Virus record (IMG/VR): IMGVR_UViG_3300012157_000001
Location: 64,001 to 128,000 of that record
Reading direction: 5' to 3' (one strand)
DNA from: a virus
Taxonomy: Duplodnaviria > Caudoviricetes
DNA: 64,000 nucleotides
Shown: positions 88-54,818 of the stretch, piece by piece
How the letters are laid out: each line of letters opens with the position of its first letter
Position numbering within the stretch: the first letter of the stretch is position 1
Notes under the pieces: generated by a model
Databases searched by the model: none
Told to the model about the DNA's origin: nothing
The model's input: only the letters and a program-made list of their open reading frames with translations
Position numbers and translations under genes: made by a program

Positions 88-315
88 TTGGTCGAGTACC
101 TGGGATTCGTCCGCGAAATGCTCGCCGAGCTTTCAGTGGCACTCGTTGAGTTGCACCCCGATAAGGCGCAGTTTCTTCAGATAATCGAGCCACTGGCTTC
201 GGTGGCTCGCGACGGCATGCGGAACAGGCACCTGGCGGACTGGGAGACTCAGACGTTTCGCACGATCGTCGTCAAGGCTCTCGCGGGCGAGACGCCGGAA
301 CCGAAGGAAGGATGA
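88..315 (+). CDS. hypothetical protein, probably 5'-truncated by the window; weak C-terminal tag match (RTIVVKALAGE)
   Basis: frame is open back to the window start and abuts the next ORF. Confidence 0.55.
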   Translation: MVEYLGFVREMLAELSVALVELHPDKAQFLQIIEPLASVARDGMRNRHLADWETQTFRTIVVKALAGETPEPKEG

Positions 316-318
316 GCG

Positions 319-549
319 ATGGAACGAAGGCAGTGCCCATGGTGTACGGACGGAGAGATCCTGCGAGACGACGAGCGCAAGGCAACCGGTCACTCCGATC
401 CGGTCTGCAACGGCTTCATGGACATGCTCAGGGAGTCGAGCGGTTTCGCTCGGATGACAATCGACCTCGTCGACGACGACAACAACGTCGTGGAGAGCTT
501 CCCTACCACTACCGGTCCGCGCGTGGTCGTACCGGAGAAAGACGGGTAG
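319..549 (+). CDS. small CxxC hypothetical protein
   Basis: CPWC motif; AAGGA upstream; packed in operon. Confidence 0.6.
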   Translation: MERRQCPWCTDGEILRDDERKATGHSDPVCNGFMDMLRESSGFARMTIDLVDDDNNVVESFPTTTGPRVVVPEKDG

Positions 550-553
550 CCCG

Positions 554-781
554 ATGCGCGTCAAATTCGACGCTGGTGGCGAGATGACGGCGCGCGACGT
601 GTTCGCGATCTCGCTCCTGCTGAAGGAGCGCAAGCTGGAGGACGGACAGGAGGCTACCCGGCTTGACCTCGCTCGGCTGCTGGAGTGCACGCATGAGGGG
701 GGCGATCAAATGAAGTTCCATGCTGGCGCGGAGATGACGGTACGCGACGTACTGGCTATCCAGCGGCTGCTGGAGGAATAG
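554..781 (+). CDS. hypothetical protein with internal duplication
   Basis: KFDAGGEMTARDVFAISLLL vs KFHAGAEMTVRDVLAIQRLL. Confidence 0.7.
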   Translation: MRVKFDAGGEMTARDVFAISLLLKERKLEDGQEATRLDLARLLECTHEGGDQMKFHAGAEMTVRDVLAIQRLLEE

Positions 782-978
782 GAAAGGAACGAAAGTTTTG
801 CGCAACGAGATTCATGTGGATGTGGACGACTGGTCGGTGTTCCGATTGGCACAGCTTCGAGAGCAACGTGAGCCAGCTGGGCTGCGCATCGTCATCGACG
901 AAGACAGGCGCGTCACTGATCTCTACATCGTGCGCGCTGACGGTACGATCGAGCGCCAGCCAGAAAGGTAAACGGCGG

Positions 979-1293
979 ATGGACCCTCGCAAGTTCGCCC
1001 GTCCACGTACTCCGCACATGCGATCGTGGCGACTGCATGTTGCTCTCATGGCGGACCGCATCGAGCGTCGAATCGGTGAACGGCTCACGGACGACGAAGT
1101 AGATCGGCTCTCGCTCGCTGGTGACCCGCTCGTGCTCCGGGAAACGTGGTTTCATTGCGGCGGATATCTCGTGGTCGAAGACGGTCGCCTTCGTCTCTCG
1201 CGGGAGCTGCGTCGCCGAGAGCCGGCACACCACAGCGTACTTCGCCGGGACGCAAATGAGCCATTTCCCCGCCCCGCGCGGCGCCGCCGTTGA
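979..1293 (+). CDS. hypothetical protein
   Basis: ATG after AAAGGT; operon packing. Confidence 0.5.
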   Translation: MDPRKFARPRTPHMRSWRLHVALMADRIERRIGERLTDDEVDRLSLAGDPLVLRETWFHCGGYLVVEDGRLRLSRELRRREPAHHSVLRRDANEPFPRPARRRR

Positions 1294-1328
1294 CAGCACT
1301 GCTGTCGCCTGATAGGAGGAACAGATAT

Positions 1329-1676: not shown

Positions 1677-1690
1677 AGAGGGAGGCTGGT

Positions 1691-5069: not shown

Positions 5070-5091
5070 GACCGCGGCAGCCGCGCGTGTC

Positions 5092-5457
5092 ATGTCCGAG
5101 CAGCGCCGGGCATTCCTTGCGCTCCAAGGCAAGACGTTTCCACGCATCGGGGACAGAGGTCGCTACATCCACAACGAGATCGACCTCGGAGCGACGCGCC
5201 CGAGCGATGAGCGGACGGAGGCCGCGGTCGTTGTGCTCGCCGTTTCCGTGAGCGGTCTCACGGTGACCGTGCGCTTTGCGGAGCGATGGTCTCGCGTTCG
5301 TTTCTGCCGAAGGCCGTTCTGCATCCATCGCCGCGGCAACGGAGCCGACGGCAGCGGCTGGTACCTGCCGTGCACCAGCAAACCAACCACTCGGCGCCTC
5401 ACGGGAGAGGTTCTATTCACTCCAGGTGACCCCGTCTTGCCGTGGAGTCTCGCGTGA
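5092..5457 (+). CDS. tag family A paralog 1 (MSEQRRAFLALQGKTFPRIGDRG)
   Basis: N-terminus shared with the next three genes. Confidence 0.75.
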   Translation: MSEQRRAFLALQGKTFPRIGDRGRYIHNEIDLGATRPSDERTEAAVVVLAVSVSGLTVTVRFAERWSRVRFCRRPFCIHRRGNGADGSGWYLPCTSKPTTRRLTGEVLFTPGDPVLPWSLA

Positions 5458-5870
5458 GCTCGCGGCGCTCGATGTCCGAACGGCAGCGTGTTCTCTTTGC
5501 GCTCCAGGGCAAGCGCTTCCCGCGAGAAGGGGAAATCGGGCTCTACACGGGGCGCGAGCGAATCGAACGTATCAGTCAACTCGGGGTCTGCTTCCCGGAC
5601 TCCGCGCGCGTGTACGCCCGGGTCGAGGTCGTCCGCTTGTCGCCGACTGGGCAGACGCTCTGGACTAGGTTCTTGACCGATGTTGCGCGGGCGCGATGGG
5701 GCACCGATGTACACCGGTGGTGGCGCTACCCGAACGAGCACTATCGGGTCGTAGTAGAAGGCAATGAGGTTCTGTACGCGGCTGGCTTCGATGCCAAGCG
5801 GGCGCCGCAGGGAGAAGTCAGCTTTCCGCGTGTTGGCTCGTGGCTCGTCGTGCCGAAGGACGCACTCTGA
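5454..5870 (+). CDS. tag family A paralog 2
   Basis: MSERQRVLFALQGKRFPREG...VEVVRLSPTGQTLWTRF. Confidence 0.75.
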   Translation: MSSRRSMSERQRVLFALQGKRFPREGEIGLYTGRERIERISQLGVCFPDSARVYARVEVVRLSPTGQTLWTRFLTDVARARWGTDVHRWWRYPNEHYRVVVEGNEVLYAAGFDAKRAPQGEVSFPRVGSWLVVPKDAL

Positions 5871-6181
5871 TGGCCCGCGGCATGTCCGAGCGCCGTCGCG
5901 CCTTTCTGGCGTTGCAGGGCGAGAGGTTCCCTCGCATCGGGCAGCGTGGTTGGTGGTCGGGTCCGCGAAGTGAGATCACTCGTCGTTCGCCGCGGGCCGC
6001 CGTGGAGGTCGTTTGCCTTTCGGCGAGCGGCAAGACGATCTGGACCAGGTTCGTATCGGCCCACTCGCGAGAGCGATTCGGTAAGGAGTCGCATCGGTGG
6101 TGGCTCAGCGGTCATGGCCCGCACAACATCGCCTACTGTTCCTTCGGCAACGACCTGTACGGCACGGTCTGGTTCAAGTGA
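5870..6181 (+). CDS. tag family A paralog 3
   Basis: MSERRRAFLALQGERFPRIG...VEVVCLSASGKTIWTRF. Confidence 0.75.
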   Translation: MARGMSERRRAFLALQGERFPRIGQRGWWSGPRSEITRRSPRAAVEVVCLSASGKTIWTRFVSAHSRERFGKESHRWWLSGHGPHNIAYCSFGNDLYGTVWFK

Positions 6182-6513
6182 GCAAGCCCCGCACGATGTC
6201 CGAGAAGACGCGCGCGTTCTTCGCGCTGCGCGGCGACGTGTACCCGCGCGAAGGCGACCGCGGCATCTTCTCTGAGGGATTCGCCGGTATCATCGACGCC
6301 GAGTTCAGCGACGACAAGCAACGCACCGTCGAGGTACGGCGCGTCTCCGCGACCGGACATCGAATCTGGACTCGATTTGTGCATCCAGACGGACAGCGCC
6401 GATTCGGGGAAGGGATGCTCGAACACCGGTGGCTGCGCTCCGAGAACTACGTCTACTACAGCACCGGCTCGAACGCGCCGATCGGCGAGGTTCGTTTCCG
6501 AGCGATGCGCTGA
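6178..6513 (+). CDS. tag family A paralog 4
   Basis: MSEKTRAFFALRGDVYPREG...VEVRRVSATGHRIWTRF. Confidence 0.75.
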   Translation: MSKPRTMSEKTRAFFALRGDVYPREGDRGIFSEGFAGIIDAEFSDDKQRTVEVRRVSATGHRIWTRFVHPDGQRRFGEGMLEHRWLRSENYVYYSTGSNAPIGEVRFRAMR

Positions 6514-12846: not shown

Positions 12847-13140
12847 GTGGGAAAGCTCGACCCTGCGAAGCCCGAAGGCACGACTGGACGCCGTGGAGGC
12901 GCCCCCCAAATCACGATACCGGGCAAGGCCTACAAGAAGCGCGTCTACGTGCATCGCGAGACGATCGAAATCATCGAGGCCATCGAGAAACGGCAGGGCG
13001 ATAACACGTCCGCGTTCGAGGCTATGTTTCTCGTCAAAATGATCCGCTCCAAAGATCTCACGATCGCAACCCTCAGGGAGCACCTGCAGAAGCTCGGACG
13101 CGAGAAAGCCGAGCTCGCCCGACGTCGGAGGCCCGCGTGA
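12847..13140 (+). CDS. hypothetical protein with C-terminal coiled coil
   Basis: operon packing. Confidence 0.55.
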   Translation: MGKLDPAKPEGTTGRRGGAPQITIPGKAYKKRVYVHRETIEIIEAIEKRQGDNTSAFEAMFLVKMIRSKDLTIATLREHLQKLGREKAELARRRRPA

Positions 13141-13355
13141 ATCTCCTGACCGACGATGAGGAAGCGCGCGAAGCCACCGTCGACGCGCTCGCCGGACGCG
13201 GCCGTAACGACCGGACGCTACGGGCAGACATCCGAGCGGCACGCGAGCGACAGCCTGAGCACCTGCGACATCGGTTCTGCCGCATCTGCGGGCCTTTCAT
13301 GATGGAGTCCTGCCCGGCGGCGCCCGCGCACGATCTTCGACCGGAGGAGCCTTGA
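13137..13355 (+). CDS. small protein with N-terminal tag (REATVDALAG) and CxxC
   Basis: GGAGG RBS; GTGA overlap. Confidence 0.6.
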   Translation: MNLLTDDEEAREATVDALAGRGRNDRTLRADIRAARERQPEHLRHRFCRICGPFMMESCPAAPAHDLRPEEP

Positions 13356-21027: not shown

Positions 21028-21381
21028 ATGACTGTTGCCGCGCTGCGCGTCGAACTGGAGCGCGAGGACGTGATGTGGGGCCTCACGATGATGCGCAGAG
21101 CGGAGGCCTGGGAACGATGGGAAACCGCTGAGGCATTGGTGCGCAGGCATCTACCAACGGGCGTGTACGTGCGCATGCCGCTTACGCTGATGCCGGACTG
21201 GTACCGTAATCTCTGGTGGGACCGAACACAGGTCGACGGTCGCGCCGCCCTGAACGACATCGACCAGCGAACTGTGGAGCTGAGAGGCGTGGGACCCGGA
21301 GGCACCGAGACGCTCTACCGTGTGGCCACCGTCGACTTCCTGGACGCAGTGCTAGCAGGCATCATCGGGGACGCCTCATGA
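21028..21381 (+). CDS. tag family B paralog 1
   Basis: LEREDVMWGLT...FLDAVLAGIIGDA. Confidence 0.7.
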   Translation: MTVAALRVELEREDVMWGLTMMRRAEAWERWETAEALVRRHLPTGVYVRMPLTLMPDWYRNLWWDRTQVDGRAALNDIDQRTVELRGVGPGGTETLYRVATVDFLDAVLAGIIGDAS

Positions 21382-21695
21382 CGCTCGCCGAGATTCGAGA
21401 GATTCTTCTTCGCGAGCTCGCCGTTTCTGCGCTATCCGGTCGCGAGAACAATTACTTCAACTTCGAACGCGGCGGACCGCGATTCACTCTACTTCGGAGG
21501 GTCGGAAAGCCGCTCGTGCTTCGTCACGTGCGCCGCGGGCAGCGCATTCGTTGGTACGAGAAGATCTACAGCGACGAGCCCCTCATCGTGGAGCGCGTCG
21601 AGACGGAACAGGTGATGTTCGAGAGCCCACGCCTCGTGATTCGGATGTCGCACTTCCTCAACGCCATCGCGAAAGGTGCGGCTCTGGACGCATGA
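21378..21695 (+). CDS. tag family B paralog 2
   Basis: LRELAVSALSG...FLNAIAKGAALDA. Confidence 0.7.
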   Translation: MTLAEIREILLRELAVSALSGRENNYFNFERGGPRFTLLRRVGKPLVLRHVRRGQRIRWYEKIYSDEPLIVERVETEQVMFESPRLVIRMSHFLNAIAKGAALDA

Positions 21696-22129
21696 GCATC
21701 GCGACCCTGAAAGAGGATCTCATGCGTGAGCTCGCCGTTGCGGCGCTGGCCGAACCGCCCGCGGGTTTCCTGCCGATCGGTGGCAGCACGGACCTGATTG
21801 ACTGGGAGAGTGGACCGACCTCTCCGCTACGCCGAGAAGCGTTGTTCCGCGCCCGGGGCCCAGCGCTGATCGTCGCTCACGTCCACGCCGGCTCGCGTAT
21901 CTGGCTCGCCACGGGTACTTTCCCGCAGAACGGTATCGTATCGATCGTGGAGACCAACGTGGTCCATTGGACCAACGATCACGTCGGCGTCTCTCGGCTC
22001 TGCGTTCGCAGGGACCCTGCGCGTCCACCACGGCGCTTCGAAACGGAGCACATGCCGCTCTTCCCGGAGCCGAGCCACATCGCCGCCTTTCTCTCGAACG
22101 TACTCCACGGCCATGTGCAGGACGCATGA
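21692..22129 (+). CDS. tag family B paralog 3
   Basis: MRELAVAALAE...FLSNVLHGHVQDA. Confidence 0.7.
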   Translation: MSIATLKEDLMRELAVAALAEPPAGFLPIGGSTDLIDWESGPTSPLRREALFRARGPALIVAHVHAGSRIWLATGTFPQNGIVSIVETNVVHWTNDHVGVSRLCVRRDPARPPRRFETEHMPLFPEPSHIAAFLSNVLHGHVQDA

Positions 22130-22536
22130 AGCTCGGCGAGCTCATCAAAGCCGCGGAGCGGCGCTTGAAACGGGTCGAGCGCACGCTCGCGTTCGACCTG
22201 CTTCGCGGTGATGACTGGGGAGCGGACAAGCGTCGATACCGCGCGTACGAGAAGGTTTCGGTTGGCGAGTACATCGCCACTGGCGATGAGGTCGAGTTCC
22301 ACCGCTCGCTCCTGCCAAAGGATAGCCCTTGGTACGGTGCCACGGCGCCCAGCCAAGCGTTCCACTGGAATGACTGGACGCGGCTGACGGTCGATCGCAT
22401 CGGCCCGGACTGCGTGCGCGTCCTGCTACCCGGACGTGGTAGCCACCCGATGCCCGTCGGCGACTTTGTGCGCGCCGTCGTGCGAGGCCACATACGCGAG
22501 CCTGTTTCCGCTGGGTCGGAAAATGCGCCTACTTGA
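22126..22536 (+). CDS. tag family B paralog 4
   Basis: VERTLAFDLLRG...FVRAVVRGHIRE. Confidence 0.7.
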   Translation: MKLGELIKAAERRLKRVERTLAFDLLRGDDWGADKRRYRAYEKVSVGEYIATGDEVEFHRSLLPKDSPWYGATAPSQAFHWNDWTRLTVDRIGPDCVRVLLPGRGSHPMPVGDFVRAVVRGHIREPVSAGSENAPT

Positions 22537-24799: not shown

Positions 24800-25801
24800 A
24801 TGTCCAGCGCCCTAATCACCGTCACGAGCCGTGCGCTCGAACCGGCCAAGGCAGCGGAGCTGCGCGCGACCGCCGAAGGGGCTACCGAATTCCTGAAAGC
24901 CGCTCGTGCCCCGAGCACACATGCCTCCTACGCATCGGACTGGCGGCAGTTCAGCGAATGGATCGAGGGTCACGGACTCGACCCGATTCCGGCGGATCCG
25001 CGCATGGTTGCCCTCTGGATCAGCCACATGGCGCGCGCTCTGAAGCGCAAGCCGTCGTCGATCCGCCGAATGCTCACGGCGATCGGAACCATCCACCGTC
25101 GCGCAGGCCATCCGAACCCGTGCGAGCAGGAAGTTGTCCGCGAAGAGATGCGCGGGATCGCCAACACGCTCGGCGTGCGACCGAAGCGGGCGGCGCCGCT
25201 CTTGATTCCACACCTGGAAGCCATCATCGCCGGCATGGGCGAGGGGCTCCGGGCCGCCCGTGATCGCGCGATCGTCCTCGTCGGCTGGAGCGGCGCTATG
25301 CGTCGGAGCGAGATCGCGGCTCTACGTGCCGAGGATCTGACGTTCCTCGACAAGGGCGTCAGCGTGCTGATTCGCCGGAGTAAGACTGACCAGGAAGGTA
25401 AGGGAGAGAACGTAGCCCTCTTCTACGCGACGCGGACGGCGCTCTGTCCCGTGCATGCGCTCCAGGAATGGATGCGCGCCGCGGCGATTACGGCGGGGCC
25501 GCTCTTTCTCCGCCTGAGCAGCCACCGCGACGCGCAGATCATCGCCGATCCGATGTCGCCAGAAATGGTTCGGTACATCGTACAGACGTGGACCGACCGC
25601 GCAGGTGTGCAGCCTGAGCAGATCGGTGCGGTGTTTTCGGCGCACTCGCTTCGCGCCGGCTTCATCACCGAGGCCGCTCGCAACGGCAAGGCCGAGTGGA
25701 CGATCGCGAAGCAGTCGCGTCATAAGAGCGCCGACGTGCTCCGGACGTACATCCGAACCGCCGATGCGTTCGAAGGGAACGCGGGAGAAGGACTGCTGTG
25801 A
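24800..25801 (+). CDS. tyrosine recombinase/integrase (Cre-like)
   Basis: catalytic R (AMRRSE), K (RSKTDQ), HSLR, H (SRHKS), Y (YIR); AGGAG RBS. Confidence 0.93.
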   Translation: MSSALITVTSRALEPAKAAELRATAEGATEFLKAARAPSTHASYASDWRQFSEWIEGHGLDPIPADPRMVALWISHMARALKRKPSSIRRMLTAIGTIHRRAGHPNPCEQEVVREEMRGIANTLGVRPKRAAPLLIPHLEAIIAGMGEGLRAARDRAIVLVGWSGAMRRSEIAALRAEDLTFLDKGVSVLIRRSKTDQEGKGENVALFYATRTALCPVHALQEWMRAAAITAGPLFLRLSSHRDAQIIADPMSPEMVRYIVQTWTDRAGVQPEQIGAVFSAHSLRAGFITEAARNGKAEWTIAKQSRHKSADVLRTYIRTADAFEGNAGEGLL

Positions 25802-26127
25802 GCGCCTACGAGGCGGCGCTGCTCCGAGAATCGGTGGCGCATGTCCTGGCCGGCGGCCGCGTATGTCCAGTGTACGGGCTGCCGCACTGGGTCTGCTCTA
25901 CGTTGCACTTGATCACCGGCGTCTGCCGCACGGTGACGACGGGGCGCTTTGAACGGGTCAGTGGCGGGTTCGCATCGAATGCCGACAAGAGCGGCATTTA
26001 CCGGCCGTGGATAGTGAGCCGCCCTGAGTGTCCGCATCACCCGGACGCGCAGGGCGAGACGTACTGGTCGACGCCCGCTGCCTCCACGCTCGATTGCGAG
26101 CAGCAGGCGATACAAGGCGGACCGTGA
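25798..26127 (+). CDS. tag family D paralog 1 (Cys/His-rich)
   Basis: RESVAHVLAGGRVCPVY..PHWVC..LH; CPHHP. Confidence 0.7.
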   Translation: MSAYEAALLRESVAHVLAGGRVCPVYGLPHWVCSTLHLITGVCRTVTTGRFERVSGGFASNADKSGIYRPWIVSRPECPHHPDAQGETYWSTPAASTLDCEQQAIQGGP

Positions 26128-26326
26128 GCAGTTCTTCGACCGACGTACTGGCCGAACACGACGACGAGCACTGCGCTTGTGGCTGGGAGCGCATCCTGGA
26201 GATCGACTTCGAGGGGATACCGGCAGCGGTTCTCGCCGCATTTCCGCCTTCGTTCACCGTGCTTTACCGCTGCCCTCGCTGCGGCCTGCAGTGGAGCGTA
26301 CACTTCGACAAGGAGCCCGAGAACTG

Positions 26327-26812
26327 ATGGCGCGCGCCGATGATATGGCTGGCGTCTGTGACCGCGAGTGCGCCGTTACCGCCCTCTCCGGGGCGCAAGT
26401 CTGTCCGATCTATCGTCTTCCGTGCTGGCTCTGCGTCGTGCTCCACATCATGACGGGGACCCTCCGGAGCGTGACCGAGGGACGCTTCGATCGGTTCGCC
26501 GGCCGCAGCTTCATGTTGCCGCTCGACGGCGATCAGAAGTACCTCTGGTCGCTGTGGCTCGTGTGCCCCCACCATCCAGGTGCCAGCACCATTGAGTACG
26601 CCAAGCGCCACGGACCCTCGTATTGGCACTACGCCGAACCCTCGCTCACGTCCACGCCGGTGACGCCGGCAAGGAAGGTGAGCGATGGCACATCACAAGC
26701 GGAAGCGACCGAAAAAGCGGCGGGCAGGCTGCCTCTACTGCAAGCCCCACAAGGCGAACGGGCAGGACGCGCAGCGGCGCCAAGAGATGCGCGCCCGGCT
26801 CTCGGAGGCTGA
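26327..26812 (+). CDS. tag family D paralog 2
   Basis: RECAVTALSGAQVCPIY..PCWLC..LH; CPHHP. Confidence 0.7.
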   Translation: MARADDMAGVCDRECAVTALSGAQVCPIYRLPCWLCVVLHIMTGTLRSVTEGRFDRFAGRSFMLPLDGDQKYLWSLWLVCPHHPGASTIEYAKRHGPSYWHYAEPSLTSTPVTPARKVSDGTSQAEATEKAAGRLPLLQAPQGERAGRAAAPRDARPALGG

Positions 26813-29441: not shown

Positions 29442-29481
29442 TTGACATCGCGGCGACGCCGGTGGCAGCTTTGGCGTCATG
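29442..29481 (+). promoter_or_regulatory. recurrent promoter, probably leaderless
   Basis: TTGACA-N18(ending TGG)-CAGCTT-7nt-ATG. Confidence 0.55.
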
Positions 29482-29862
29482 GCCTACAAGGGCCCCGTCG
29501 CCACGATGCGCGAAGAGATGGAACGGGAGAGGGCCGCATTCGCTCTCACCGGCGAAAAGCCACTCGAACCGGACTCATGCCCGATCGCTCAGAAGGTACT
29601 GCGTGCTCGGCTGTTCACGCCTTTCCCATTTGTCTTCCTCAGCGACGGCAAACCGTTCCGACCGTGGCGTATAGGAATGGAAATGGTTGCGCCCAAGTGG
29701 TTCTGGGATGGAACCGGGCGCGCGTTGAACGATGACGCCGATGGGCTCGTGGTGGTGTGGACACGCAAGGCCCATCGTGCCTGGAACTCTCAGAGGTTCG
29801 CGACTCGCAGCATCGCCTCCGCAATCCTGCAGGGAGAGATCAAGGACGTTTTTTGGTGGTGA
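29479..29862 (+). CDS. tag family B paralog 5
   Basis: MERERAAFALTGE...IASAILQGEIKD. Confidence 0.72.
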   Translation: MAYKGPVATMREEMERERAAFALTGEKPLEPDSCPIAQKVLRARLFTPFPFVFLSDGKPFRPWRIGMEMVAPKWFWDGTGRALNDDADGLVVVWTRKAHRAWNSQRFATRSIASAILQGEIKDVFWW

Positions 29863-30275
29863 CCGATCTGATCCCCGCGAGGCTCCTCCCCGTCGCCGCG
29901 ATTCGCGCGGACATGGATCGCGAACGCGCGATGCGTGGACTCACCGGCGAACAGGTGCCTCAACCGAGCAAAGACACCATGGACGTCGAAGACGTTCACC
30001 TCCGCAAGGCCCTGATGCGGAAGCTCCGATGGCCACGTGACGGCGCGCGCAGGCCGTGGCTAGTCGGCATCGCGATGCTCGGTGGGCCGGGCGCACCCTG
30101 GCAGGGCGTCGGCAACGTCGTGCGAAGCTGGTCGGCTTCTAGCTTCTGTACCGTTTGGCAAAAGCTGCCACTGAAGGAGCACCCACAGATGAAGCAGTGG
30201 AAGAGCCAATGGGTGGACGTGAATCGGATGGCTCTCGACATCTTCTACGGCCACATCACGGATCCGTACCGATGA
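29859..30275 (+). CDS. tag family B paralog 6
   Basis: MDRERAMRGLTGE...MALDIFYGHITD. Confidence 0.72.
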   Translation: MTDLIPARLLPVAAIRADMDRERAMRGLTGEQVPQPSKDTMDVEDVHLRKALMRKLRWPRDGARRPWLVGIAMLGGPGAPWQGVGNVVRSWSASSFCTVWQKLPLKEHPQMKQWKSQWVDVNRMALDIFYGHITDPYR

Positions 30276-41027: not shown

Positions 41028-41474
41028 GTGCTCGCAGCCGTCCGCGTCGCGCAGGGGATCTACCAGGGCCCCTGCCCGAAGTCGGCCGAACAGGTACGCC
41101 GCTACGGCTTCCACGTCCTGACTTTCTGCGCGCGCGAGATTCAGCCCGTGATTCACGACCCACAGGGACTTCGCGTGCTCTACGCACCGATGAATGACAG
41201 CCCGACGAATCCGATGACCGAAGAGGAGTGGACGAGCGCTCAGCAAGCGGGCCGCGAGATCGCACGTGTCCATTCGACCGGTGGTCGCGCGCTGACGACC
41301 TGCGCAATGGGCCTGAACCGTTCCGGAATCGTGAATGCGCTCGCGCTGCACTACCGTTTCGGTGTTTCTGGCGCGGAGGCCATCGATCAGATCCGTCGCA
41401 CCAGGGGTCCCATGGCGCTCAGCAATCCGAGCTTTGTCGAGCGGCTTCGACGACTACCCGTGCGCGTCAGTTGA
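41028..41474 (+). CDS. dual-specificity/PTP-like phosphatase
   Basis: CX5R P-loop CAMGLNRSG; AIDQIRRTR..ALSNPSF. Confidence 0.85.
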   Translation: MLAAVRVAQGIYQGPCPKSAEQVRRYGFHVLTFCAREIQPVIHDPQGLRVLYAPMNDSPTNPMTEEEWTSAQQAGREIARVHSTGGRALTTCAMGLNRSGIVNALALHYRFGVSGAEAIDQIRRTRGPMALSNPSFVERLRRLPVRVS

Positions 41475-47984: not shown

Positions 47985-48674
47985 TCACTCTTGGCTCCGC
48001 CCATCAGGCGGCAACGCCGGCTCGTCATCGCCAAGGTTGCCCAGTCCATCACCCGCGCTCCCGGGCGTCCCGAAAACTGCCTGCCCCGCGAACGGAAAAA
48101 GCACGCCCTCAACAGCCTGGTCCCCCGAGCCTGGCGACGTTGAGCCACCGAGTGCGATGCTGTTCGGCGGCAAGGTTCCCACTCGCCTCATTTGTTCCAT
48201 CTGGCGCGTGAGCTCTTCCGTTAGTTGCTTTCCCTGCGCGACCCTCGGAAAACTGGGACCGGTGACCCCTATCGGCCCCATTGGTCGTAGCGCCTCTTCC
48301 GCTGCGAGCGCGATGAGTGCCACCTCGCGCTCTGCGACCTCCGTGCAGTGAACGAACCATCCGTCCGCGACCGCAAGCACCTGTCGAGCGATGCTCGCTT
48401 GCTCGCAACCGGTCCAATCGGCGAGCATGCGCCGATGTTCTGGCTTTATGTTGAGTCGGCGCCCTACGTGTACGGGCGCTGGTGCTGTCATCACGTGCCA
48501 ACTGCAGTCCACCCATCCAACGCCTGACTTCGGGACAACATACGCCTCGACCGTTGCCACGGTCCCGCCTGCAATCTCTCTGCGTTCGGACCAGACCCTG
48601 ATCACGTAGGCTTCGACCGTGGATGCTGGCGGAATGTCCACGGCCGGAACCAGGCTCACAGCCCTTCGATCCAC
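47985..48674 (-). CDS. hypothetical protein with internal tag variant (EREVALIALAA)
   Basis: 229-aa ORF following the RHH-like gene. Confidence 0.6.
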   Translation of the reverse strand: MDRRAVSLVPAVDIPPASTVEAYVIRVWSERREIAGGTVATVEAYVVPKSGVGWVDCSWHVMTAPAPVHVGRRLNIKPEHRRMLADWTGCEQASIARQVLAVADGWFVHCTEVAEREVALIALAAEEALRPMGPIGVTGPSFPRVAQGKQLTEELTRQMEQMRRVGTLPPNSIALGGSTSPGSGDQAVEGVLFPFAGQAVFGTPGSAGDGLGNLGDDEPALPPDGRSQE

Positions 48675-48871
48675 TCGATGATCGCGCGATTGAAGCTCAT
48701 CTGCTTTCCCTCCTGCTTCGCGCGACGCGAGCAGTGGTCGAGGAGCTTCGCTTTGTGCGGCCGAGCGATCCGGAGTGTGATTACCTCGTAGTCCTTCGCC
48801 GCATGGCCATTGCTCTTGCTCTTGGCCTTTTTCGAGAGCTTCTTGGACCTGGAATGAGACTTGACTGCCAT
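48656..48871 (-). CDS. ribbon-helix-helix-like DNA-binding protein
   Basis: VITLRIARPHKAKL...SFNRAIIEWI after a basic N-terminus. Confidence 0.65.
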   Translation of the reverse strand: MAVKSHSRSKKLSKKAKSKSNGHAAKDYEVITLRIARPHKAKLLDHCSRRAKQEGKQMSFNRAIIEWIEGL

Positions 48872-48941
48872 GGCGCCAACGTAGCCGGTGGCAGCATAGG
48901 CGTCAACTGGCTTGTCCGATTGGGCCGAAAGAGCCTACTAT
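48869..48941. promoter_or_regulatory. divergent promoter pair
   Basis: minus strand TTGACG-N17-TACGTT-6nt-ATG(48871); plus strand TTGTCC...TACTAT before 48960. Confidence 0.55.
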
Positions 48942-48959
48942 GTACGGGGCGGCTCGCCA

Positions 48960-49142
48960 ATGACCTACGAGTACGAGTGCACGGACCCGGTTTGCCACCA
49001 CCATTGGGAGACCGAACAGCGAATCACGGAGCCGGCGATCAAGGTCTGCCCCTTGTGCGGGCGCGAGACCGCGCGGCGGCTCATTTCCCAGGGTAACTTC
49101 GTCTTGCATGGACCAGGATGGTTCAGGAGCGGTGGCTACTAA
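48960..49142 (+). CDS. FmdB-family zinc-ribbon protein
   Basis: MTYEYEC...CPLCG...RRLIS..FVLHGPGW. Confidence 0.85.
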   Translation: MTYEYECTDPVCHHHWETEQRITEPAIKVCPLCGRETARRLISQGNFVLHGPGWFRSGGY

Positions 49143-49387
49143 GCGACGTCCCGAAACCAGCCGGTGAATACGATCGCGCCGCGGTTCCTCATCGTCTGGA
49201 AGATCCAGTCCGAGCCCCCCCACTGCCTGCGCTCGCCTTCAACTCCGGGAGGCCACTGCGACGGCGGACCGGTCAAGGCGCGGAAGGCCCGGTGGCGCTC
49301 CGTGCTCTCGTTGTGCTCGTCTCGGCTCCGCTGCCGGCGCCGATCGAGCTTCGTTGGCGCCGCGTTCCGCCGGAGCCGCAATCGCAT
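49139..49387 (-). CDS. small protein with tag (ERHRAFRALTG)
   Basis: tag match supports this strand and frame. Confidence 0.5.
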   Translation of the reverse strand: MRLRLRRNAAPTKLDRRRQRSRDEHNESTERHRAFRALTGPPSQWPPGVEGERRQWGGSDWIFQTMRNRGAIVFTGWFRDVA

Positions 49388-49602
49388 GCGCAGCAACGGT
49401 AGCACGCAATTTCGCCGCTCGTCGCGCCCAGTACCAAGCATGTCGAAACGCACCGTCCGGCTCACCGAGCCGCAGGCTTCGATTCTGCGACAGGCTCTAC
49501 ACTGGATCGACAGCGCCGGCACCTACTCCGAGTTCTGGGAGTCCATATATCCGCACCAGCGGGCGCTCTGGGATCGCACAGTAGCCACTGTTGTGGAGCA
49601 GA

Positions 49603-49938
49603 CTACGCGGCGCGCTTGTCACGGAACGCGAGCGGCAGGTTCGACACGAGTCGGTAACCCGTCGGGCCGAGCGCGACGCCGGTCGTAGCGTCGCTGAGAT
49701 CCGGTTCCGTAAACGTGATGCACGGCACGCCGGCCACGCGAGCGCGTTGCGCGAGCGCGCAGAGCGCCGTTTCGTCGGGAACCTCCAGCAGCACGATGTT
49801 GTTCGATTCGTCGTGCCACCGGCGTGTCGCCTCCGGAAACGCTAACGCAAAGGCGAGAGCGGTGTGCGCCAACTGCGCGGCGCGCGCGCCGGGAGGAAGG
49901 TCAGAACGAACGACGACGTAAAGTTTTCCGTTTTCCAT
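49603..49938 (-). CDS. peptidyl-tRNA hydrolase, Pth2 family
   Basis: KLYVVVRSDLPPG..AAQLAH...IVLL...EPD...TGVALGP...LPL. Confidence 0.88.
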   Translation of the reverse strand: MENGKLYVVVRSDLPPGARAAQLAHTALAFALAFPEATRRWHDESNNIVLLEVPDETALCALAQRARVAGVPCITFTEPDLSDATTGVALGPTGYRLVSNLPLAFRDKRAA

Positions 49939-50019
49939 CGGCCGGTCACCGTGGTGCTGCCCCACGTCCCTTCCGGTTCATTAGGCCGGACGCTCTGCTG
50001 TTGAGCTAGTGACCGTTGG

Positions 50020-50058
50020 TCGGGGCGGCGTCATCCCGAGGGATGAGCAACCGCCCCG
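50020..50058. other. GC-rich stem-loop immediately 3' of the tRNA (minus strand)
   Basis: cggggcgg..tcatccc-ga-gggatga..ccgccccg. Confidence 0.5.
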
Positions 50059-50059
50059 G

Positions 50060-50134
50060 AGCGCCCCTGTGGAGTCGAACCACAGACCCCTCGGACCATT
50101 ACTCCGAGTGCTCTGACCACTGAGCTAGGGGCGC
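50060..50134 (-). tRNA. tRNA-like gene with enlarged anticodon arm; isotype undetermined
   Basis: acceptor GCGCCCC/GGGGCGC, D arm GCTC/GAGC, stem CTCGG/CCGAG around AGTAATGGT, T arm TGTGG-TTCGACT-CCACA; no encoded CCA. Confidence 0.85.
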
Positions 50135-50267
50135 GAAATGCGAAAAACCCGGTCGGGACGATTCCCGCCGGGTCTACGCTCGTGAAGCCCTCTAGGGGCT
50201 GACTGTCAATGGCACGAGCGAGTCACGGCCTGCATGGTGCGTCCTTCCGCCGAAGCTGTCAAGGCCG

Positions 50268-50834
50268 TCAGGTGAGCCACTGCCAGATCGCGCCGGCCCA
50301 GCCGGCGTACCCGGCGACTGTCGGCTGAAGCCCGTCCGGGCCCCGCGGCAGCGTCAGGGCCGTTGCGGTCGGGAAGTAGCGACGGGAAGGCTTCCCGCGC
50401 GCCCTGGCGCCCGCTGGGGCCGTCGGCGGCCCAAGCCACATGGCCTGGGCTCCCGAGCGCTGGATCGCCACCGCGAGTCCTTTCAGTGCCGCCGCCTGCT
50501 TGGCCTTGCCGATGAGGTCCGGAGCGATGATGTCCAGCGCCACAACGACGACCGTCGGACGAAAAGCCGCGAGCTTGCTGACGAGCTCCGGGCGCGCGGC
50601 CCACTCCTCGGTGCGGGGCGGCCTTGTGCCCTGCGGGGGGAGCGCCACGTCGAAGGCGATTCGTTGGTCGCGCGCGAGCGCACGCAAGGGGGGAGCGAGC
50701 CCATGCGCGAACGCGCCGCCGAGGAGCAGCAAGCGAGTCTTCGCTTCTACCTTTGGACCTGGACGGCCTAGCCGCCGTGCTCGCCCGATGCCGGCGGCAA
50801 CGCCGAGTCCCCCGTAAAGCCAGCGTCGGTCCAT
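50268..50834 (-). CDS. degenerate SGNH-hydrolase-like protein
   Basis: LLLGGAFAHGL, PTVVVVAL, MWLGPP, PDGLQPTVAGYAGWA; catalytic Ser and His appear replaced. Confidence 0.5.
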   Translation of the reverse strand: MDRRWLYGGLGVAAGIGRARRLGRPGPKVEAKTRLLLLGGAFAHGLAPPLRALARDQRIAFDVALPPQGTRPPRTEEWAARPELVSKLAAFRPTVVVVALDIIAPDLIGKAKQAAALKGLAVAIQRSGAQAMWLGPPTAPAGARARGKPSRRYFPTATALTLPRGPDGLQPTVAGYAGWAGAIWQWLT

Positions 50835-51062
50835 CGTCGGTTGACGCCGACGCTACCGCACCTCAGTCGGCCGCGGCAAATTGAGCGTCACCGGCGCTCT
50901 CGGGAGGTACGCTATCTGCCGGCCCGGCGATGCAGACGCTCAGCGTCGAGCCGCATGCGTGGTTGCGTAGTTCCAAGGTGCCCCCGAGCCCGTTGTCTTG
51001 GTAGCCGACAATCGGCAGGCTTTCCCATGCGACCACCTTCCCGCAGCACGTGCACGTCTTCG

Positions 51063-51458
51063 TCATCGTGAATCTTTCGTTGTAACCGACTCGATTAGGA
51101 CTAGCAAGGCCTCCGCCTGAACCGGCTGATCCTTGATGGCGTCGTGCAGCACCAGGGCCGCGTTTGGCGTCTCGTGCGCGCGCACGCCGCTGCCGAAGCT
51201 GTCGCGCTCGACCACGATCCGCGAGCCATTGTCCGGAGTCAGCTCGAACGTGTGACCACCCGCCGTGAGCAGCTCCACCGGTCTCAGGGCTGCCCGAATG
51301 GAAGACGGGAGTTCGTGGAGCACGTCCTCGTACTCTTCAAGCGCTTCGCGAATCAGCCAGAGCAGCGGCAGCTCACCGAGGGCAGCGCCGGCAATCGCCG
51401 CGAGGGCAGCGCGCCTATCGATCTCCGCTTGCGCTTCAGCAGCAGTCACTTTTCGCAT
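51063..51458 (-). CDS. hypothetical protein with N-terminal tag (DRRAALAAIAG)
   Basis: packing. Confidence 0.6.
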   Translation of the reverse strand: MRKVTAAEAQAEIDRRAALAAIAGAALGELPLLWLIREALEEYEDVLHELPSSIRAALRPVELLTAGGHTFELTPDNGSRIVVERDSFGSGVRAHETPNAALVLHDAIKDQPVQAEALLVLIESVTTKDSR

Positions 51459-51757
51459 TCCCGAGCGAGTGCGCCGAGGATGGCGTAAGGATCTGCGCTG
51501 CCTCGCTGCACACGCTCCGTGAGCACACGGACAGCACCTTCGAGACTCAGACCGCCGAGCGGCGTGCCGCGCGCAGCTTCTTTTGGATCGACCCACAAGT
51601 TAAAGTCGATAAGTACGTTCGGGCGCCGTTGCAGTTCCCGCGGCGGCAGACCGCGACAGTGTCGGCAGTACCGTTCAAGCGCCGCCTCGAACGTCTTCTC
51701 CCAACCGCCGAGCGCCCCGAATGCGACCTCGCGTTCGACTTCGTCCGAGGCGCTCAC
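51446..51757 (-). CDS. hypothetical protein with N-terminal tag (EREVAFGALGG)
   Basis: GTGA overlap; GGAAGG RBS. Confidence 0.65.
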   Translation of the reverse strand: MSASDEVEREVAFGALGGWEKTFEAALERYCRHCRGLPPRELQRRPNVLIDFNLWVDPKEAARGTPLGGLSLEGAVRVLTERVQRGSADPYAILGALARECEK

Positions 51758-52185
51758 CCGCCTTCCTTCCAGGCGCGCACGCACCGCCTAACAGCATCTG
51801 CCACGTCGTCGGGAATGCGGAAGAAACCGAGTGCGCCTTTGCATGGGAGTGGCTCCGGCAGCGCAATGACATCCGCCAACGTCAGAGCGCCAGGGCCAAC
51901 GAAGTAGGGCGAGTCGTGCTCTTCGACAAAACCCGTGATCGTCATCGCGCCGACGATCGCGCCGCGCGGCAGCTCGCCGAGCGGAGGCACCCGCAGGCCA
52001 GCCACCTCCAGAATGAACGCCGCGGCGTCCTGGTACTCCCGCTTGCCGCAGCCGGACGAGGCGTGCAGCAGCACACGTCCCCGGAACAGTCGATTCGGGT
52101 TGTCCGGCTGCCAATCTCTGTTCTCGACGGGCTTGCCGTTCAGAATGGCGAAGGCCCATGGTTGCCGGACCGACAGGCCTCTCAC
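51754..52185 (-). CDS. ASCH domain protein
   Basis: LSVRQPWA..I..GKPVENRDW...RG.VLLHAS...GAIVG...KGALGFF. Confidence 0.9.
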   Translation of the reverse strand: MRGLSVRQPWAFAILNGKPVENRDWQPDNPNRLFRGRVLLHASSGCGKREYQDAAAFILEVAGLRVPPLGELPRGAIVGAMTITGFVEEHDSPYFVGPGALTLADVIALPEPLPCKGALGFFRIPDDVADAVRRCVRAWKEGG

Positions 52186-52493
52186 GTCCCGCGCTCCACC
52201 GACCGGCGTCGCAATTTCCGCGCGATACGGATCCCGCGCAGAGCCGCGAGCAGTCGGCGTGCATCATCTCCGCTTTCCACGGCCGTGGACAGGCTGCCGG
52301 CGCGCACTAAGTACGCCACGCGCAGGCAGCCTGTACCCTCGCTCAGCGATTCGCCGGAGAGTGCCGCCATCGCGCGTTGACGATCGATCTCCCGAAACGC
52401 TTCCGGGTGCGCATGGAATGCGAGGTGACCCTCGTCGTCCATCTCGACAACATGCATCTCGTCGCCGCATCGGACGCGGTACCTGCGACTCAC
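52182..52493 (-). CDS. hypothetical protein with internal tag (DRQRAMAALSGE)
   Basis: GTGA overlap; GGAGGAG RBS. Confidence 0.65.
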   Translation of the reverse strand: MSRRYRVRCGDEMHVVEMDDEGHLAFHAHPEAFREIDRQRAMAALSGESLSEGTGCLRVAYLVRAGSLSTAVESGDDARRLLAALRGIRIARKLRRRSVERGT

Positions 52494-52762
52494 GGCTCCT
52501 CCGAATACCAAGGCTTCGGTCGGGGGGCCCACGCACAGTCGCACCAGAGACGCCGTTTGCACTCGCCCACGTCGTAGTCGCAGATGAGACTGTCTGCCTC
52601 GGCGTTGGGAAGGCAGTAGACGAGCGAGCGACCTAGCACGGGTCGTTCGCACGCCTGCATCGAGTCGTCTTCAACGAAGACGTCCCAGAGCCGCGCGTGG
52701 TGCGTCTCCCAGGCCACGAGCGCCAGGCCGACGGCTGCCGAGATGAACGCGATGCGCCTCAT
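52490..52762 (-). CDS. small secreted or membrane Cys-rich protein
   Basis: hydrophobic N-terminus; six Cys. Confidence 0.55.
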   Translation of the reverse strand: MRRIAFISAAVGLALVAWETHHARLWDVFVEDDSMQACERPVLGRSLVYCLPNAEADSLICDYDVGECKRRLWCDCAWAPRPKPWYSEEP

Positions 52763-54120
52763 GCAGCCTTTTCCTTCGGATCGCGAATCTTGAGCACACG
52801 CTTCGCGTATCGCGGCGGCGGGTAGTGCTCCTCCACACCCGAGTCTGGATTCAAGATTCCGATCACCAGCTGGCAGCCACGCGGCGGATCTGCGGGCCAC
52901 GGCGTGTAGCCATCCGTGAGTACGATGATGACGTTCGCGCGAAGCTTTTGCGCCGCCTCGATGCCGATACCCATATCGGTCCCGCCGCCACCGGCAAGCT
53001 CGACGTCGAACGCATTCGAGACACGCTGAACGCCGCCGTGAACCGCCGCGTCGCAGCAGAGCACCGGCACACGCCGCTGTCCGACCGCACGCAGGATGCC
53101 CTTGATTTCGATCAGTGCCCTGGCGAGCATGAGCTCACCCATCGATCCAGACGTGTCTACGACCACGGCCGCGTCCGGATTCGGCCGAACAAGCGCTGGC
53201 ATGAGCACGCCATGGAAGTTGCCGCGGCGAGCGATCTTCGCATACGAGTAGTCGCACATGCCCCGCGCCATCGTGACGGCGTTCTTCACGAGCGCCGAGA
53301 GCTCACGCTCCCAGGGCACCACCGGCGGTTCGAGCAGCGCCTCGGCCCAGCGCTTCCAGCCGGCGGGCACGTTGCCGCGCGCCGCGGCTGCCTGAATCTC
53401 GCGTGCTACCTGCTGGCGCAGCAGATCGCCCTCGGCTTCGCCAATGCCTGGCTCCTTAGTCGCACCGCCCGGCGCCGGGAGCTCGTACTCGCGCGGCACG
53501 CCGTGCGCACCGCTGCCGCAGTCGCACTTGTCCGGCATCGTGCCGCCGCCGCCTTTGCCGGATTTGCCCTTGCTGCCCAGAGCTCCCTTGCTACCACCGC
53601 CGCCTCCCGACGGCGGCGGCGGGTTCTTCAGGAGCATCTGATAGTACTCCTCCCAGAGCCGCCCCTCAGGATAACCGTACTTGTGCGGCATCGGCGGATC
53701 GCCCGGCAGCGGCATGCCCTCGTTCTTGAGGTCGTCGTTCAGCTCGCAGTCTTCCGCTACGTTGACCAGATGGCGCGTCTGCTCCTGCTGTTCGAGCGGC
53801 GCCGCACACAACACCATGTCGGCGCGTTCATGGTGCTTTCTGAGCCAGTGTCCAATTTCGTGCACGAGCACGCTCGCCGCCTCCTCGACGGACCATTTGT
53901 CCTGCGGCACACCCGTGCCGATGTGGATCCTGTTCGGATCGATGTAAACCCGGCCGTACTTGTCCACGGCCATAGTGAGCGGCATGAGGATGCCGCCGCC
54001 AAGATCGACCATCGTATTGGGGCGCGGCACGAGATGCATCGCGAAGAGCGCCGTCGCGAAGTACGGTCGCTTGTGCGCCGCAAGGAAGCGAACCGTTGCG
54101 ATCTTCGTCTTGTCGTCCAT
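52759..54120 (-). CDS. DUF2201-type metallopeptidase + vWA domain protein
   Basis: HEIGHWLRKH; MIDAS DTSGSM; GGGTDM; LTDGYTPWP. Confidence 0.92.
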   Translation of the reverse strand: MDDKTKIATVRFLAAHKRPYFATALFAMHLVPRPNTMVDLGGGILMPLTMAVDKYGRVYIDPNRIHIGTGVPQDKWSVEEAASVLVHEIGHWLRKHHERADMVLCAAPLEQQEQTRHLVNVAEDCELNDDLKNEGMPLPGDPPMPHKYGYPEGRLWEEYYQMLLKNPPPPSGGGGGSKGALGSKGKSGKGGGGTMPDKCDCGSGAHGVPREYELPAPGGATKEPGIGEAEGDLLRQQVAREIQAAAARGNVPAGWKRWAEALLEPPVVPWERELSALVKNAVTMARGMCDYSYAKIARRGNFHGVLMPALVRPNPDAAVVVDTSGSMGELMLARALIEIKGILRAVGQRRVPVLCCDAAVHGGVQRVSNAFDVELAGGGGTDMGIGIEAAQKLRANVIIVLTDGYTPWPADPPRGCQLVIGILNPDSGVEEHYPPPRYAKRVLKIRDPKEKAA

Positions 54121-54122
54121 GT

Positions 54123-54335
54123 TCAGTTTAGCCTCTGTTGGGGGTCCGGCTGCACGAGTGCCTTGATGAGCTTCCTTTGTGACTCGATCAGCTGCATGTC
54201 CGCCTCTCGCGCGCGCTTGTAGGTGGCGACACTTCTCCGGTACGACTCTATCGTTTTCCCGTAGCTCCGTCGGACGACAAGGGTGAGGATCAGCGACGCG
54301 ACTGCGACCGCAAGCGTGAATAGATTGAGCAGCAT
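54123..54335 (-). CDS. small membrane protein
   Basis: N-terminal TM; GAGG RBS. Confidence 0.55.
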   Translation of the reverse strand: MLLNLFTLAVAVASLILTLVVRRSYGKTIESYRRSVATYKRAREADMQLIESQRKLIKALVQPDPQQRLN

Positions 54336-54353
54336 TAGCCTCTCGTTCTTACG

Positions 54354-54818
54354 TCAGAGCCAGCGGCTCGCTTCCTCGCAGAGCTCGTAGCAGCGCTTCC
54401 TGGCGCGCTCGATCCCGAGCACGATCCGCAGCGCGACATCGACGTCGGTTCCGGCGCGGTGCGCAAGTTCCTTTGCCGCGAGGCCAGCGTCCATGTGGCG
54501 TCGAGAAGCGCCGCGCGCCGGATGAATCGTCACCAGCGGCGTAGGCTTTGTGTCGAAGGTGCCGTCCGGGTACGCGCTCTTCAGCGCCAGATGGATGTGG
54601 ACAGTCGCGCCGCGCCGGAGCGCGACTCGGATGTAGTCGCGCCCGGCCTTGCTCCTGCGGAGATCCCGCACCGCTTCGATGAGCCCACACTTTCCGAGCG
54701 AGAGGCGCACGTCCCGGTAGTTGCCGAGCCCCTTACGGAGGAGGGCCTCCACTGGCTCGCTACCGGTGCCGCCGCTCAGCGCGGCTACCGCAACTTCTCG
54801 TCGTAGATTCGCCTTCAT
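54354..54818 (-). CDS. hypothetical protein with N-terminal tag (RREVAVAALSGG)
   Basis: ATGA overlap; GAGGAG RBS. Confidence 0.65.
   Translation of the reverse strand: MKANLRREVAVAALSGGTGSEPVEALLRKGLGNYRDVRLSLGKCGLIEAVRDLRRSKAGRDYIRVALRRGATVHIHLALKSAYPDGTFDTKPTPLVTIHPARGASRRHMDAGLAAKELAHRAGTDVDVALRIVLGIERARKRCYELCEEASRWL

What the first reader, a model, noticed from the sequence alone, without database searches (positions are those of the whole stretch)
88..54818. One short helical tag (R-E-x-A-x-x-A-L-x-G) is shared by about 25 otherwise unrelated small proteins
Seen: the motif recurs at fixed spacing in genes on both strands. Close matches are 5092 QRRAFLALQG, 5454 RQRVLFALQG, 5870 RRRAFLALQG, 6178 KTRAFFALRG, 13137 REATVDALAG, 20633 REAAVVALAG, 21378 RELAVSALSG, 21692 RELAVAALAE, 25798 RESVAHVLAG, 26327 RECAVTALSG, 29479 RERAAFALTG, 29859 RERAMRGLTG, 30538 RERALQALSG, 30810 RERLLRALGG, 31094 RERAFAALAG, 31537 RERVVAALAG, 49387(-) RHRAFRALTG, 51458(-) RRAALAAIAG, 51757(-) REVAFGALGG, 52493(-) RQRAMAALSG and 54818(-) REVAVAALSG. 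Weaker matches occur in genes at 88, 3413, 21028, 22126, 40576 and 48674. It usually lies at the N-terminus, just after a TM anchor, or at the extreme C-terminus. Codons vary synonymously (cgc/cgt/cgg gag; gct ctc/gca ctc/gcg ttg), so conservation is at the protein level. Inference: a portable docking or addressing signal that recruits many different cargo domains to one hub, such as a capsid-packaging/ejection route (functionally like the T4 capsid-targeting sequence), the phage MoxR-vWA chaperone, a host machine, or a shared hetero-oligomer. I know no described system with this motif. Caveat: A/R/L/G are abundant in GC-rich proteins, and RuvC has a probable chance near-match (VQRAVRALLG).
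Basis: partly seen in the sequence, partly recalled or inferred. Interest (0 to 1): 0.88.

Follow-up and report, generated by a model that had tools for sequence, protein, structure and literature searches.

The report
Portable helix tag for viral AAA+ machine
About thirty small, mostly unrelated proteins of this large uncultured bacterial virus carry the same ten-residue helix, which turns out to be the stripped-down core of an unnamed domain that sits beside one ATP-driven chaperone/peptidase gene pair in bacteria and viruses, so it is probably the label by which that machine picks its clients.

Summary
The motif is real. All 21 close matches are in coupled ORFs. A profile trained on the window finds 7 hits outside it against 0.15 expected. 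Codons follow genome usage, so selection is on the peptide. 25 genes in the window and 34 in the 179-kb virus carry it, in about 21 unrelated groups, none in the morphogenesis block. Two tagged genes (54818, 52493) flank a DUF2201 zincin-vWA gene next to a MoxR-type AAA+ ATPase. In 52493 the tag is the central helix of an unnamed ~55-residue Cys/His module. The same module lies beside AAA+/DUF2201 in unrelated viruses and in actinobacteria (4 of 4 published genomes with it, among 149; p about 4e-6). A profile trained only on the bacterial helices recovers 18 tagged viral proteins. Nine relatives with no detected ATPase have 0-2 tags. Best reading (0.6): a recognition tag read by the virus's own AAA+/DUF2201 machine. 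Binding is not shown, and ATPase-bearing relatives need not expand the tag. No paper found describes tag or module. This scan has noted shared tags, and tagged clients of AAA+/DUF2201 pairs, on other DNA.

The parts
55081..56253 (-). MoxR-type AAA+ ATPase, 390 aa, proposed motor
   Evidence: phrog_1297 E 2e-24; Walker A at 24 and Walker B at 107; homologues carry AAA_5 and bpMoxR
54354..54818 (-). Gene X, 154 aa, between ATPase and DUF2201; N-terminal tag at 54771-54800
   Evidence: order kept in 9 related loci; tag Gly invariant, Leu nearly so in 21 homologues
52759..54120 (-). DUF2201 protein, 453 aa: HExxH zincin-like domain plus vWA with complete MIDAS; proposed adaptor or peptidase
   Evidence: PF13203 and PF09967; H87, E88, H91, D322, S324, S326, T381, D403 invariant or nearly so in 98 rows
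52182..52493 (-). Gene Y, 103 aa: full Cys/His module whose central helix is the tag (52353-52382)
   Evidence: 48-row family, C9, H14, L45, C56 conserved; model pLDDT 95, helix 32-46; same module beside AAA+/DUF2201 in bacteria
259..288 (+). C-terminal tag in the gene ending at 315
   Evidence: 18.2 bits; paralogue just upstream of the window has it too
5092..6513 (+). Four tandem paralogues with N-terminal tag (5101, 5481, 5891, 6205)
   Evidence: 18-22 bits; one group when the tag is masked
13137..13355 (+). 72-aa orphan, N-terminal tag at 13167-13196
   Evidence: 21.1 bits
20633..20929 (+). 98-aa protein, tag two residues before the stop (20891-20920)
   Evidence: 22.0 bits; homologue in ATPase-negative G004 lacks it
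21378..22536 (+). Three genes with N-terminal tag (21411, 21725, 22180)
   Evidence: 22.7, 19.6 and 13.2 bits
23751..24167 (+).
   Evidence: 17.4 bits (12.8 before retraining)
25798..26812 (+). Two paralogues with N-terminal tag (25825, 26363)
   Evidence: 16.2 and 23.0 bits; paralogy E 5e-15
29479..30275 (+). Two genes with N-terminal tag (29524, 29919)
   Evidence: 23.1 and 19.4 bits
30538..31821 (+). Four genes with a hydrophobic anchor followed by the tag (30619, 30900, 31271, 31651); 31094 ends in a peptidoglycan-binding domain
   Evidence: 18.6-25.9 bits; hydropathy above the cut-off in three of the four; PF01471
38447..38833 (+).
   Evidence: 16.7 bits (14.4 before retraining)
47985..48659 (-). 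224-aa protein with a degenerate internal tag at 48300-48329
   Evidence: 10.7 bits; orthologue in G001 scores 23.2
49139..49387 (-). Small protein, tag at 49268-49297
   Evidence: 23.6 bits
51063..51757 (-). Two genes downstream of Y with N-terminal tag (51387, 51704)
   Evidence: 15.5 and 21.2 bits; tag kept in orthologues at 27-58% identity elsewhere

Best explanation
The tag, (D/E)-R-E-x-A-h-x-A-L-x-G, is a short helix closed by a glycine. It is the exposed core of an unnamed Cys/His module that is a standing third component of one clade of MoxR AAA+ / DUF2201 operons. In this virus lineage the scaffold was shed and the bare helix spread over about thirty accessory proteins. The virus's own DUF2201 protein (vWA MIDAS site or zincin cleft) or the ATPase ring grips the helix, and ATP hydrolysis then remodels, releases or hands the protein to the peptidase, so that many fast-changing accessory proteins are activated or cleared by one machine. 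Shown: the motif, its selection at protein level, its homology with the module, the gene linkage. Inferred: binding, which subunit binds, and the outcome.
For: Order ATPase - tagged X - DUF2201 - tagged Y is kept in relatives down to about 47% ATPase identity. The Y module sits next to DUF2201 in distant relatives G020 and G022, in unrelated viruses G025 (two copies) and G027 (three copies), and in actinobacterial operons L198, L201, L202, whose helices score 13.2, 15.2 and 12.4 bits on the viral profile. The Atlas structure search reached actinobacterial ankyrin proteins on its own (TM 0.55). In a random draw of Actinomycetota, 4 of 4 published genomes with the module have DUF2201 within 0.4-2.1 kb, against 4 of 145 without it (p 3.5e-6); two hold 5-6 scattered copies at N-terminal, internal and C-terminal places, as the virus does. 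A profile from 15 bacterial helices alone picks 29 proteins of this virus against 8.6 expected, 18 of them tagged. Nine ATPase-negative relatives have 0-2 tags. Core positions are 64% identical in orthologues against 43% elsewhere. An X orthologue gained a second tag at its C-terminus. 28 of 30 tags have an acid at position 0 or 2, as a MIDAS ligand needs (PMC4660213).
Against: No binding was measured. The ATPase pair does not force expansion: G005 has X, Y and about 4 tags, G019, G020 and G022 have 0-2. The two strongly tagged genomes are sisters, so within the family this is one event. The invariant residues are Leu and Gly, not the acid (Glu in 20 of 30). About half of the DUF2201 genes in the bacterial draw had no module hit. 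Real proteomes beat the shuffle null of the bacterial profile by up to 2.4-fold without any ATPase. Loci L041-L045 and L186 were chosen through the operon.
Confidence: 0.6

Rival explanations
1. The tag mimics the module in order to bind a host factor (the host's own AAA+/DUF2201 system or another protein that the module contacts), not the viral pair.
For: The module is chromosomal in actinobacteria. Expansion is limited to two sister genomes, which could follow a host shift. Tagged genes fill the accessory region.
Against: The virus carries its own intact pair with two tagged genes inside the operon. The host is unknown; capsid-gene hits in genome bins gave mixed taxa and look like stray viral contigs.
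Confidence: 0.13
2. The tag is a virion-loading or ejection signal read by a structural protein, like the T4 capsid targeting sequence.
For: Small diverse cargo with one shared peptide is the T-even pattern (PMC3012670). Four tagged genes have hydrophobic anchors and one a peptidoglycan-binding domain. Iyer et al. proposed a virion-assembly role for the phage pair (PMC7824862), so this may overlap with the best explanation.
Against: 0 of 44 genes in the morphogenesis block and 0 of 124 small genes outside the accessory region are tagged (p 4e-8). Relatives whose conserved candidate capsid protein is 80% identical have no tags. The module is common in bacterial chromosomes. Position is free, unlike the N-terminal T4 signal (own knowledge).
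Confidence: 0.1
3. The helix pairs with itself or with X or Y and builds hetero-oligomers among the tagged proteins, with no enzyme reading it.
For: It is amphipathic with small residues at 4 and 7; tagged genes come in runs.
Against: Ten residues are too short for a stable coiled coil; one copy per protein; strict linkage of the parent module to AAA+/DUF2201 is left unexplained.
Confidence: 0.08
4. The tag is a relic of gene birth by recombination that copied the start of X-like genes, with no present function.
For: Several tags sit in tandem paralogues with shared N-termini; a tyrosine recombinase lies next to 25798.
Against: Codons are randomised to genome usage while residues are kept; core more conserved than the rest; C-terminal and internal copies, 21 groups.
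Confidence: 0.07
5. Chance, from Ala/Arg/Leu/Gly-rich proteins and a common helix cap.
For: Ala 12%, Gly 9%, Leu 8%, Arg 8%; three hits are probably chance.
Against: Held-out 7 against 0.15; relatives of like composition give 0-2.
Confidence: 0.01

Closest known systems
MoxR AAA+ plus metallopeptidase-vWA pair of group 2.2 jumbo phages (Iyer et al. 2021, PMC7824862)
   Same: Same two-gene architecture; the DUF2201 protein matches Atu_ph07 weakly (E 2e-8).
   Different: The paper names no third component, client or tag and proposes virion assembly; here the tagged genes are accessory and the virus shows no terminase.
CbbQ-CbbO, RavA-ViaA, Rea1/midasin, ATV p618-p892 (PMC4660213, PMC7159879)
   Same: MoxR ring with a vWA partner whose MIDAS binds an acidic residue of the client; complete MIDAS here.
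   Different: These serve one or a few fixed clients through a surface residue; none is known to use a transferable peptide on dozens of proteins, and their vWA partners have no zincin domain.
vWA-MoxR ternary conflict systems and their FxSxx-COOH peptide systems (Kaur et al. 2020, PMC7159879)
   Same: MoxR, vWA and a variable third component; a zincin cleaves small variable proteins with a conserved peptide.
   Different: No VMAP, iSTAND, FtsH or beta-propeller seen here; the zincin is fused to vWA; the word ankyrin does not occur in that paper.
T4 capsid targeting sequence (PMC3012670)
   Same: One short peptide shared by diverse small phage proteins.
   Different: N-terminal only and read by the prohead core; the present tag is position-free and descends from a bacterial domain.
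Double-glycine leader peptides (own knowledge)
   Same: Amphipathic helix ending in hydrophobic-x-Gly.
   Different: Those need Gly-Gly/Ala/Ser, an N-terminal place and a C39 transporter.

Membership tests
MoxR AAA+ / vWA pair | MoxR-clade AAA+ with Walker A and B | tested here: met
   phrog_1297; motifs at 24 and 107; AAA_5 and bpMoxR on homologues; the window protein itself has no Pfam hit
MoxR AAA+ / vWA pair | Adjacent vWA gene with complete MIDAS | tested here: met
   PF09967; D322, S324, S326, T381, D403 invariant
MoxR AAA+ / vWA pair | ATP-driven remodelling of a client bound through vWA | not testable with these tools
   needs purified proteins
Group 2.2 jumbo-phage MoxR / peptidase-vWA pair | vWA fused to an N-terminal metallopeptidase | tested here: met
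   PF13203, HExxH at 87-91
Group 2.2 jumbo-phage MoxR / peptidase-vWA pair | Role in virion assembly (proposed by its authors) | tested here: inconclusive
   tags absent from the morphogenesis block, which does not exclude other clients
vWA-MoxR ternary systems (Kaur 2020) | Third component VMAP, iSTAND, FtsH or beta-propeller | tested here: not met
   neighbours X and Y are 154 and 103 aa with no Pfam (X, Y) or NCBIfam match
T4 capsid targeting sequence | Strictly N-terminal | tested here: not met
   15 of 32 N-terminal, 6 C-terminal, the rest internal
T4 capsid targeting sequence | Prohead core and gp21-type protease of a tailed phage | tested here: inconclusive
   no Terminase_6N (control rang); Peptidase_S77 search had no positive control
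T4 capsid targeting sequence | Encapsidates a fused reporter | not testable with these tools
   virus is uncultured
Double-glycine leader peptide | Gly followed by Gly, Ala or Ser | tested here: not met
   4 of 32; mostly Glu, Lys, Arg
Double-glycine leader peptide | C39 peptidase transporter | tested here: not met
   none in the viral genome, control rang in 7; host not tested
Encapsulin or microcompartment loading peptides | Shell gene linked to tagged cargo | not tested
   lead from earlier scan notes only

The most novel reading that the evidence does not exclude
AAA+/DUF2201 pairs form a widespread, undescribed tag-directed unfoldase or ATP-dependent protease. Its natural handle is the Cys/His module; viruses shrink that handle to a bare helix and use it to control a whole accessory proteome. 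The many shared terminal helices seen in other large phages would be dialects of the same system.
Probability: 0.3. Interest if true: 0.9.

Novelty: new variant of a known kind. Interest (0 to 1): 0.76.

Why it matters
MoxR-vWA chaperones are common, but for most the clients and the way they are chosen are unknown, and DUF2201 has almost no literature (one paper with the term and AAA). A ten-residue transferable label gives a direct assay, names about thirty candidate clients among orphan viral genes, and supplies an unnamed domain that predicts clients in bacteria. Because culturable Streptomyces and Micromonospora carry the same operon, the idea can be tested without isolating the virus. It would also offer a reader for the shared helical tags seen in other large phages.

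Tried and rejected
DNA-level repeat or recombination site: rejected, codons follow genome usage. Complex prediction of DUF2201 with Y, Mg and Zn: no verdict, score 0.00, controls not run; not evidence either way. Fold searches of Y in solved structures: nothing clear, best Z 3.8. Atlas feature searches of X and Y: blank. Structure of the candidate capsid protein: pLDDT 28, useless, so the virus type rests on gene content only. PHROGs, Pfam and NCBIfam name none of the tagged proteins except one peptidoglycan-binding domain. RecT and YqaJ hits: not kept in distant orthologues, set aside. Search for other dialects in ATPase-negative relatives: none stood out. ATPase search of species genomes by back-translation: nothing. 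Module search in 15 further records: nothing, with no positive control. Host: not found. No RNA holder listed. Literature searches for MoxR with DUF2201, and for shared motifs on phage small proteins: no paper.
Full report
Setting. The window is positions 64,001-128,000 of a complete 179,401-base virus record with terminal repeats and 65% G+C. The best-matching run, possibly its source, is a freshwater sediment metagenome. No terminase was found. A conserved 250-aa gene in the morphogenesis block finds 28 related records. The host is unknown. My gene calls come from a codon-model script, not a standard program.

The observation. Two of the six weak ones are real, two marginal, two not; two further tags were missed. 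In all, 25 window genes and 34 genome genes score 12 bits or more; these scores are partly circular. Unsupervised counting ranks the pattern first. Codons follow genome usage. The fuller consensus is (D/E)-R-E-x-A-h-x-A-L-x-G, with Leu 29 of 30 and Gly 29 of 30. With the tag masked, 32 proteins fall into 21 groups. 19 of 32 tags are within 15 residues of an end (p 0.0006). Tags occupy the accessory region only: 32 of 190 small genes there, 0 of 124 elsewhere. In orthologue pairs the core positions are 64% identical and the rest 43%. One homologue in an ATPase-negative relative lacks the C-terminal tag, and one X orthologue has gained a second copy. So the tag is selected and portable.

Where it comes from. 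Two tagged genes, X (54818) and Y (52493), flank a DUF2201 gene next to a MoxR-type ATPase. Catalytic and MIDAS residues are intact. The order is kept in relatives down to about 47% ATPase identity. Y belongs to a family with conserved Cys9, His14, Leu45 and Cys56; its model is confident (pLDDT 95) and the tag ends helix 32-46. Zinc binding by the Cys/His set is my inference. The module has no Pfam or NCBIfam name and no clear solved match. It lies beside DUF2201 in distant relatives G020 and G022 and in unrelated viruses G025 and G027. It also lies in bacterial operons: after DUF2201 in L198, and inside an ankyrin protein just upstream of the ATPase in Streptomyces goshikiensis and Micromonospora auratinigra, where its helix scores 12-15 bits on the viral profile. 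The Atlas structure search reached such ankyrin proteins independently (TM 0.55).

Out-of-sample tests. In a random draw of 150 Actinomycetota genomes, four published genomes had the module and all four had DUF2201 within 0.4-2.1 kb; only 4 of the other 145 had DUF2201 (p 3.5e-6). One more weak hit is in an unpublished genome without a DUF2201 hit (p 1.7e-5 if counted). Only 37 candidates were scored per genome and kinship was not corrected. Two of the four hold 5-6 scattered copies at different places in their proteins. A profile from 15 bacterial helices alone picks 29 proteins of this virus against 8.6 expected (max 14), 18 of them tagged; ATPase-negative relatives reach at most 2.4-fold. 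An unrelated 105-kb virus with the pair has its own C-terminal helix ending in L-x-G near the operon (7 against 1.6).

Within the family. Tags at 12 bits: 34 in this genome, 13 in its sister G001, 4 in G005 (ATPase, X, Y), 2 in G019 (ATPase, no X or Y), 0-1 in G020 and G022, and 0-2 in all ten ATPase-negative records, of which two are near-identical. The two rich genomes are sisters. The pair therefore looks necessary for the expansion but is not sufficient, and the expansion is one event.

Mechanism. From known MoxR systems, the vWA partner binds the client, usually through an acidic residue at the MIDAS metal, and the ring supplies force (PMC4660213; PMC7159879). 28 of 30 tags have an acid at position 0 or 2, which fits, but the strictest residues are Leu and Gly, which would suit a hydrophobic groove or the zincin cleft as well. 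Tags two to six residues from a stop argue against a leader whose removal frees a cargo, and for a handle or degron. I put 0.6 on the viral AAA+/DUF2201 machine as reader. Whether it activates, releases or destroys its clients is open. Rivals are a host reader (0.13), virion loading (0.10), self-association (0.08), a relic (0.07).

Comparison. The gene pair is a member of the MoxR / peptidase-vWA kind noted in group 2.2 jumbo phages, for which virion assembly was proposed and no tag or third component named (PMC7824862). The tag fails membership of the T4 capsid targeting sequence (position) and of double-glycine leaders, though it may work like an address label. I found no paper on tag or module; subscription journals are poorly covered. 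Earlier notes of this scan report shared helical tags in other large phages and tagged clients of AAA+/DUF2201 pairs elsewhere. They are unchecked leads, not support. None matched this module by sequence. What this case adds is a line of descent from a bare viral tag to a bacterial domain tied to the pair.

Verdict. Real feature; new variant of a known kind; interest 0.76.

Noticed in passing
window 31094-31540 +: Two hydrophobic segments, then the tag, then a peptidoglycan-binding domain; the basic stretch after the anchor suggests the domain faces the cytoplasm, odd unless the protein ends up in a virion membrane.
   Followed up: partly
L200 572-5058: Tandem array of six genes, five with a clear N-terminal Y module and all with related but divergent C-terminal parts; no ATPase on the 6.5-kb contig.
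   Followed up: partly
G026 47990-54700 and 70273-71500 (L213, L214): Unrelated 42% G+C virus with AAA+/DUF2201 has about a dozen small proteins ending in a shared helix, often closing in L-x-G.
   Followed up: partly
L201 2778-3983: The Streptomyces ATPase itself has a stretch scoring 15.4 bits on the tag profile at residue 274; the viral ATPase does not. Chance or a self-mimic.
   Followed up: no
L008 3565-6090: The DUF2201 gene of relative G001 carries an in-frame insert of about 390 aa that begins with Cys and ends His-Asn, like an intein.
   Followed up: no
L001 3371-6553: A second MoxR-clade ATPase (Mg-chelatase/YifB type) lies inside a 1060-aa protein; untagged relatives G002 and G003 share a homologue, so it is a poor candidate reader.
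   Followed up: partly
   Followed up: partly
window 24800-25801 +: Tyrosine recombinase overlapping the start of tagged gene 25798.
   Followed up: no
window 41467-44985 -: 1172-aa protein with an HSP90-like ATPase domain and a weak DUF5661 match.
   Followed up: no
L001 18719-19471 and loci L064-L091: A family of about 28 virus records, up to 182 kb, sharing an unannotated 250-aa candidate capsid gene; no terminase found in this genome.
   Followed up: partly
G020 and G022 (L160-L175): A different enriched pattern, N-R-R-x-R, tops the unsupervised count in these two distant relatives.
   Followed up: no
L197 2027-2692: In another phage-like contig the gene overlapping the ATPase start ends in a helix closing with L-G-G.
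   Followed up: no
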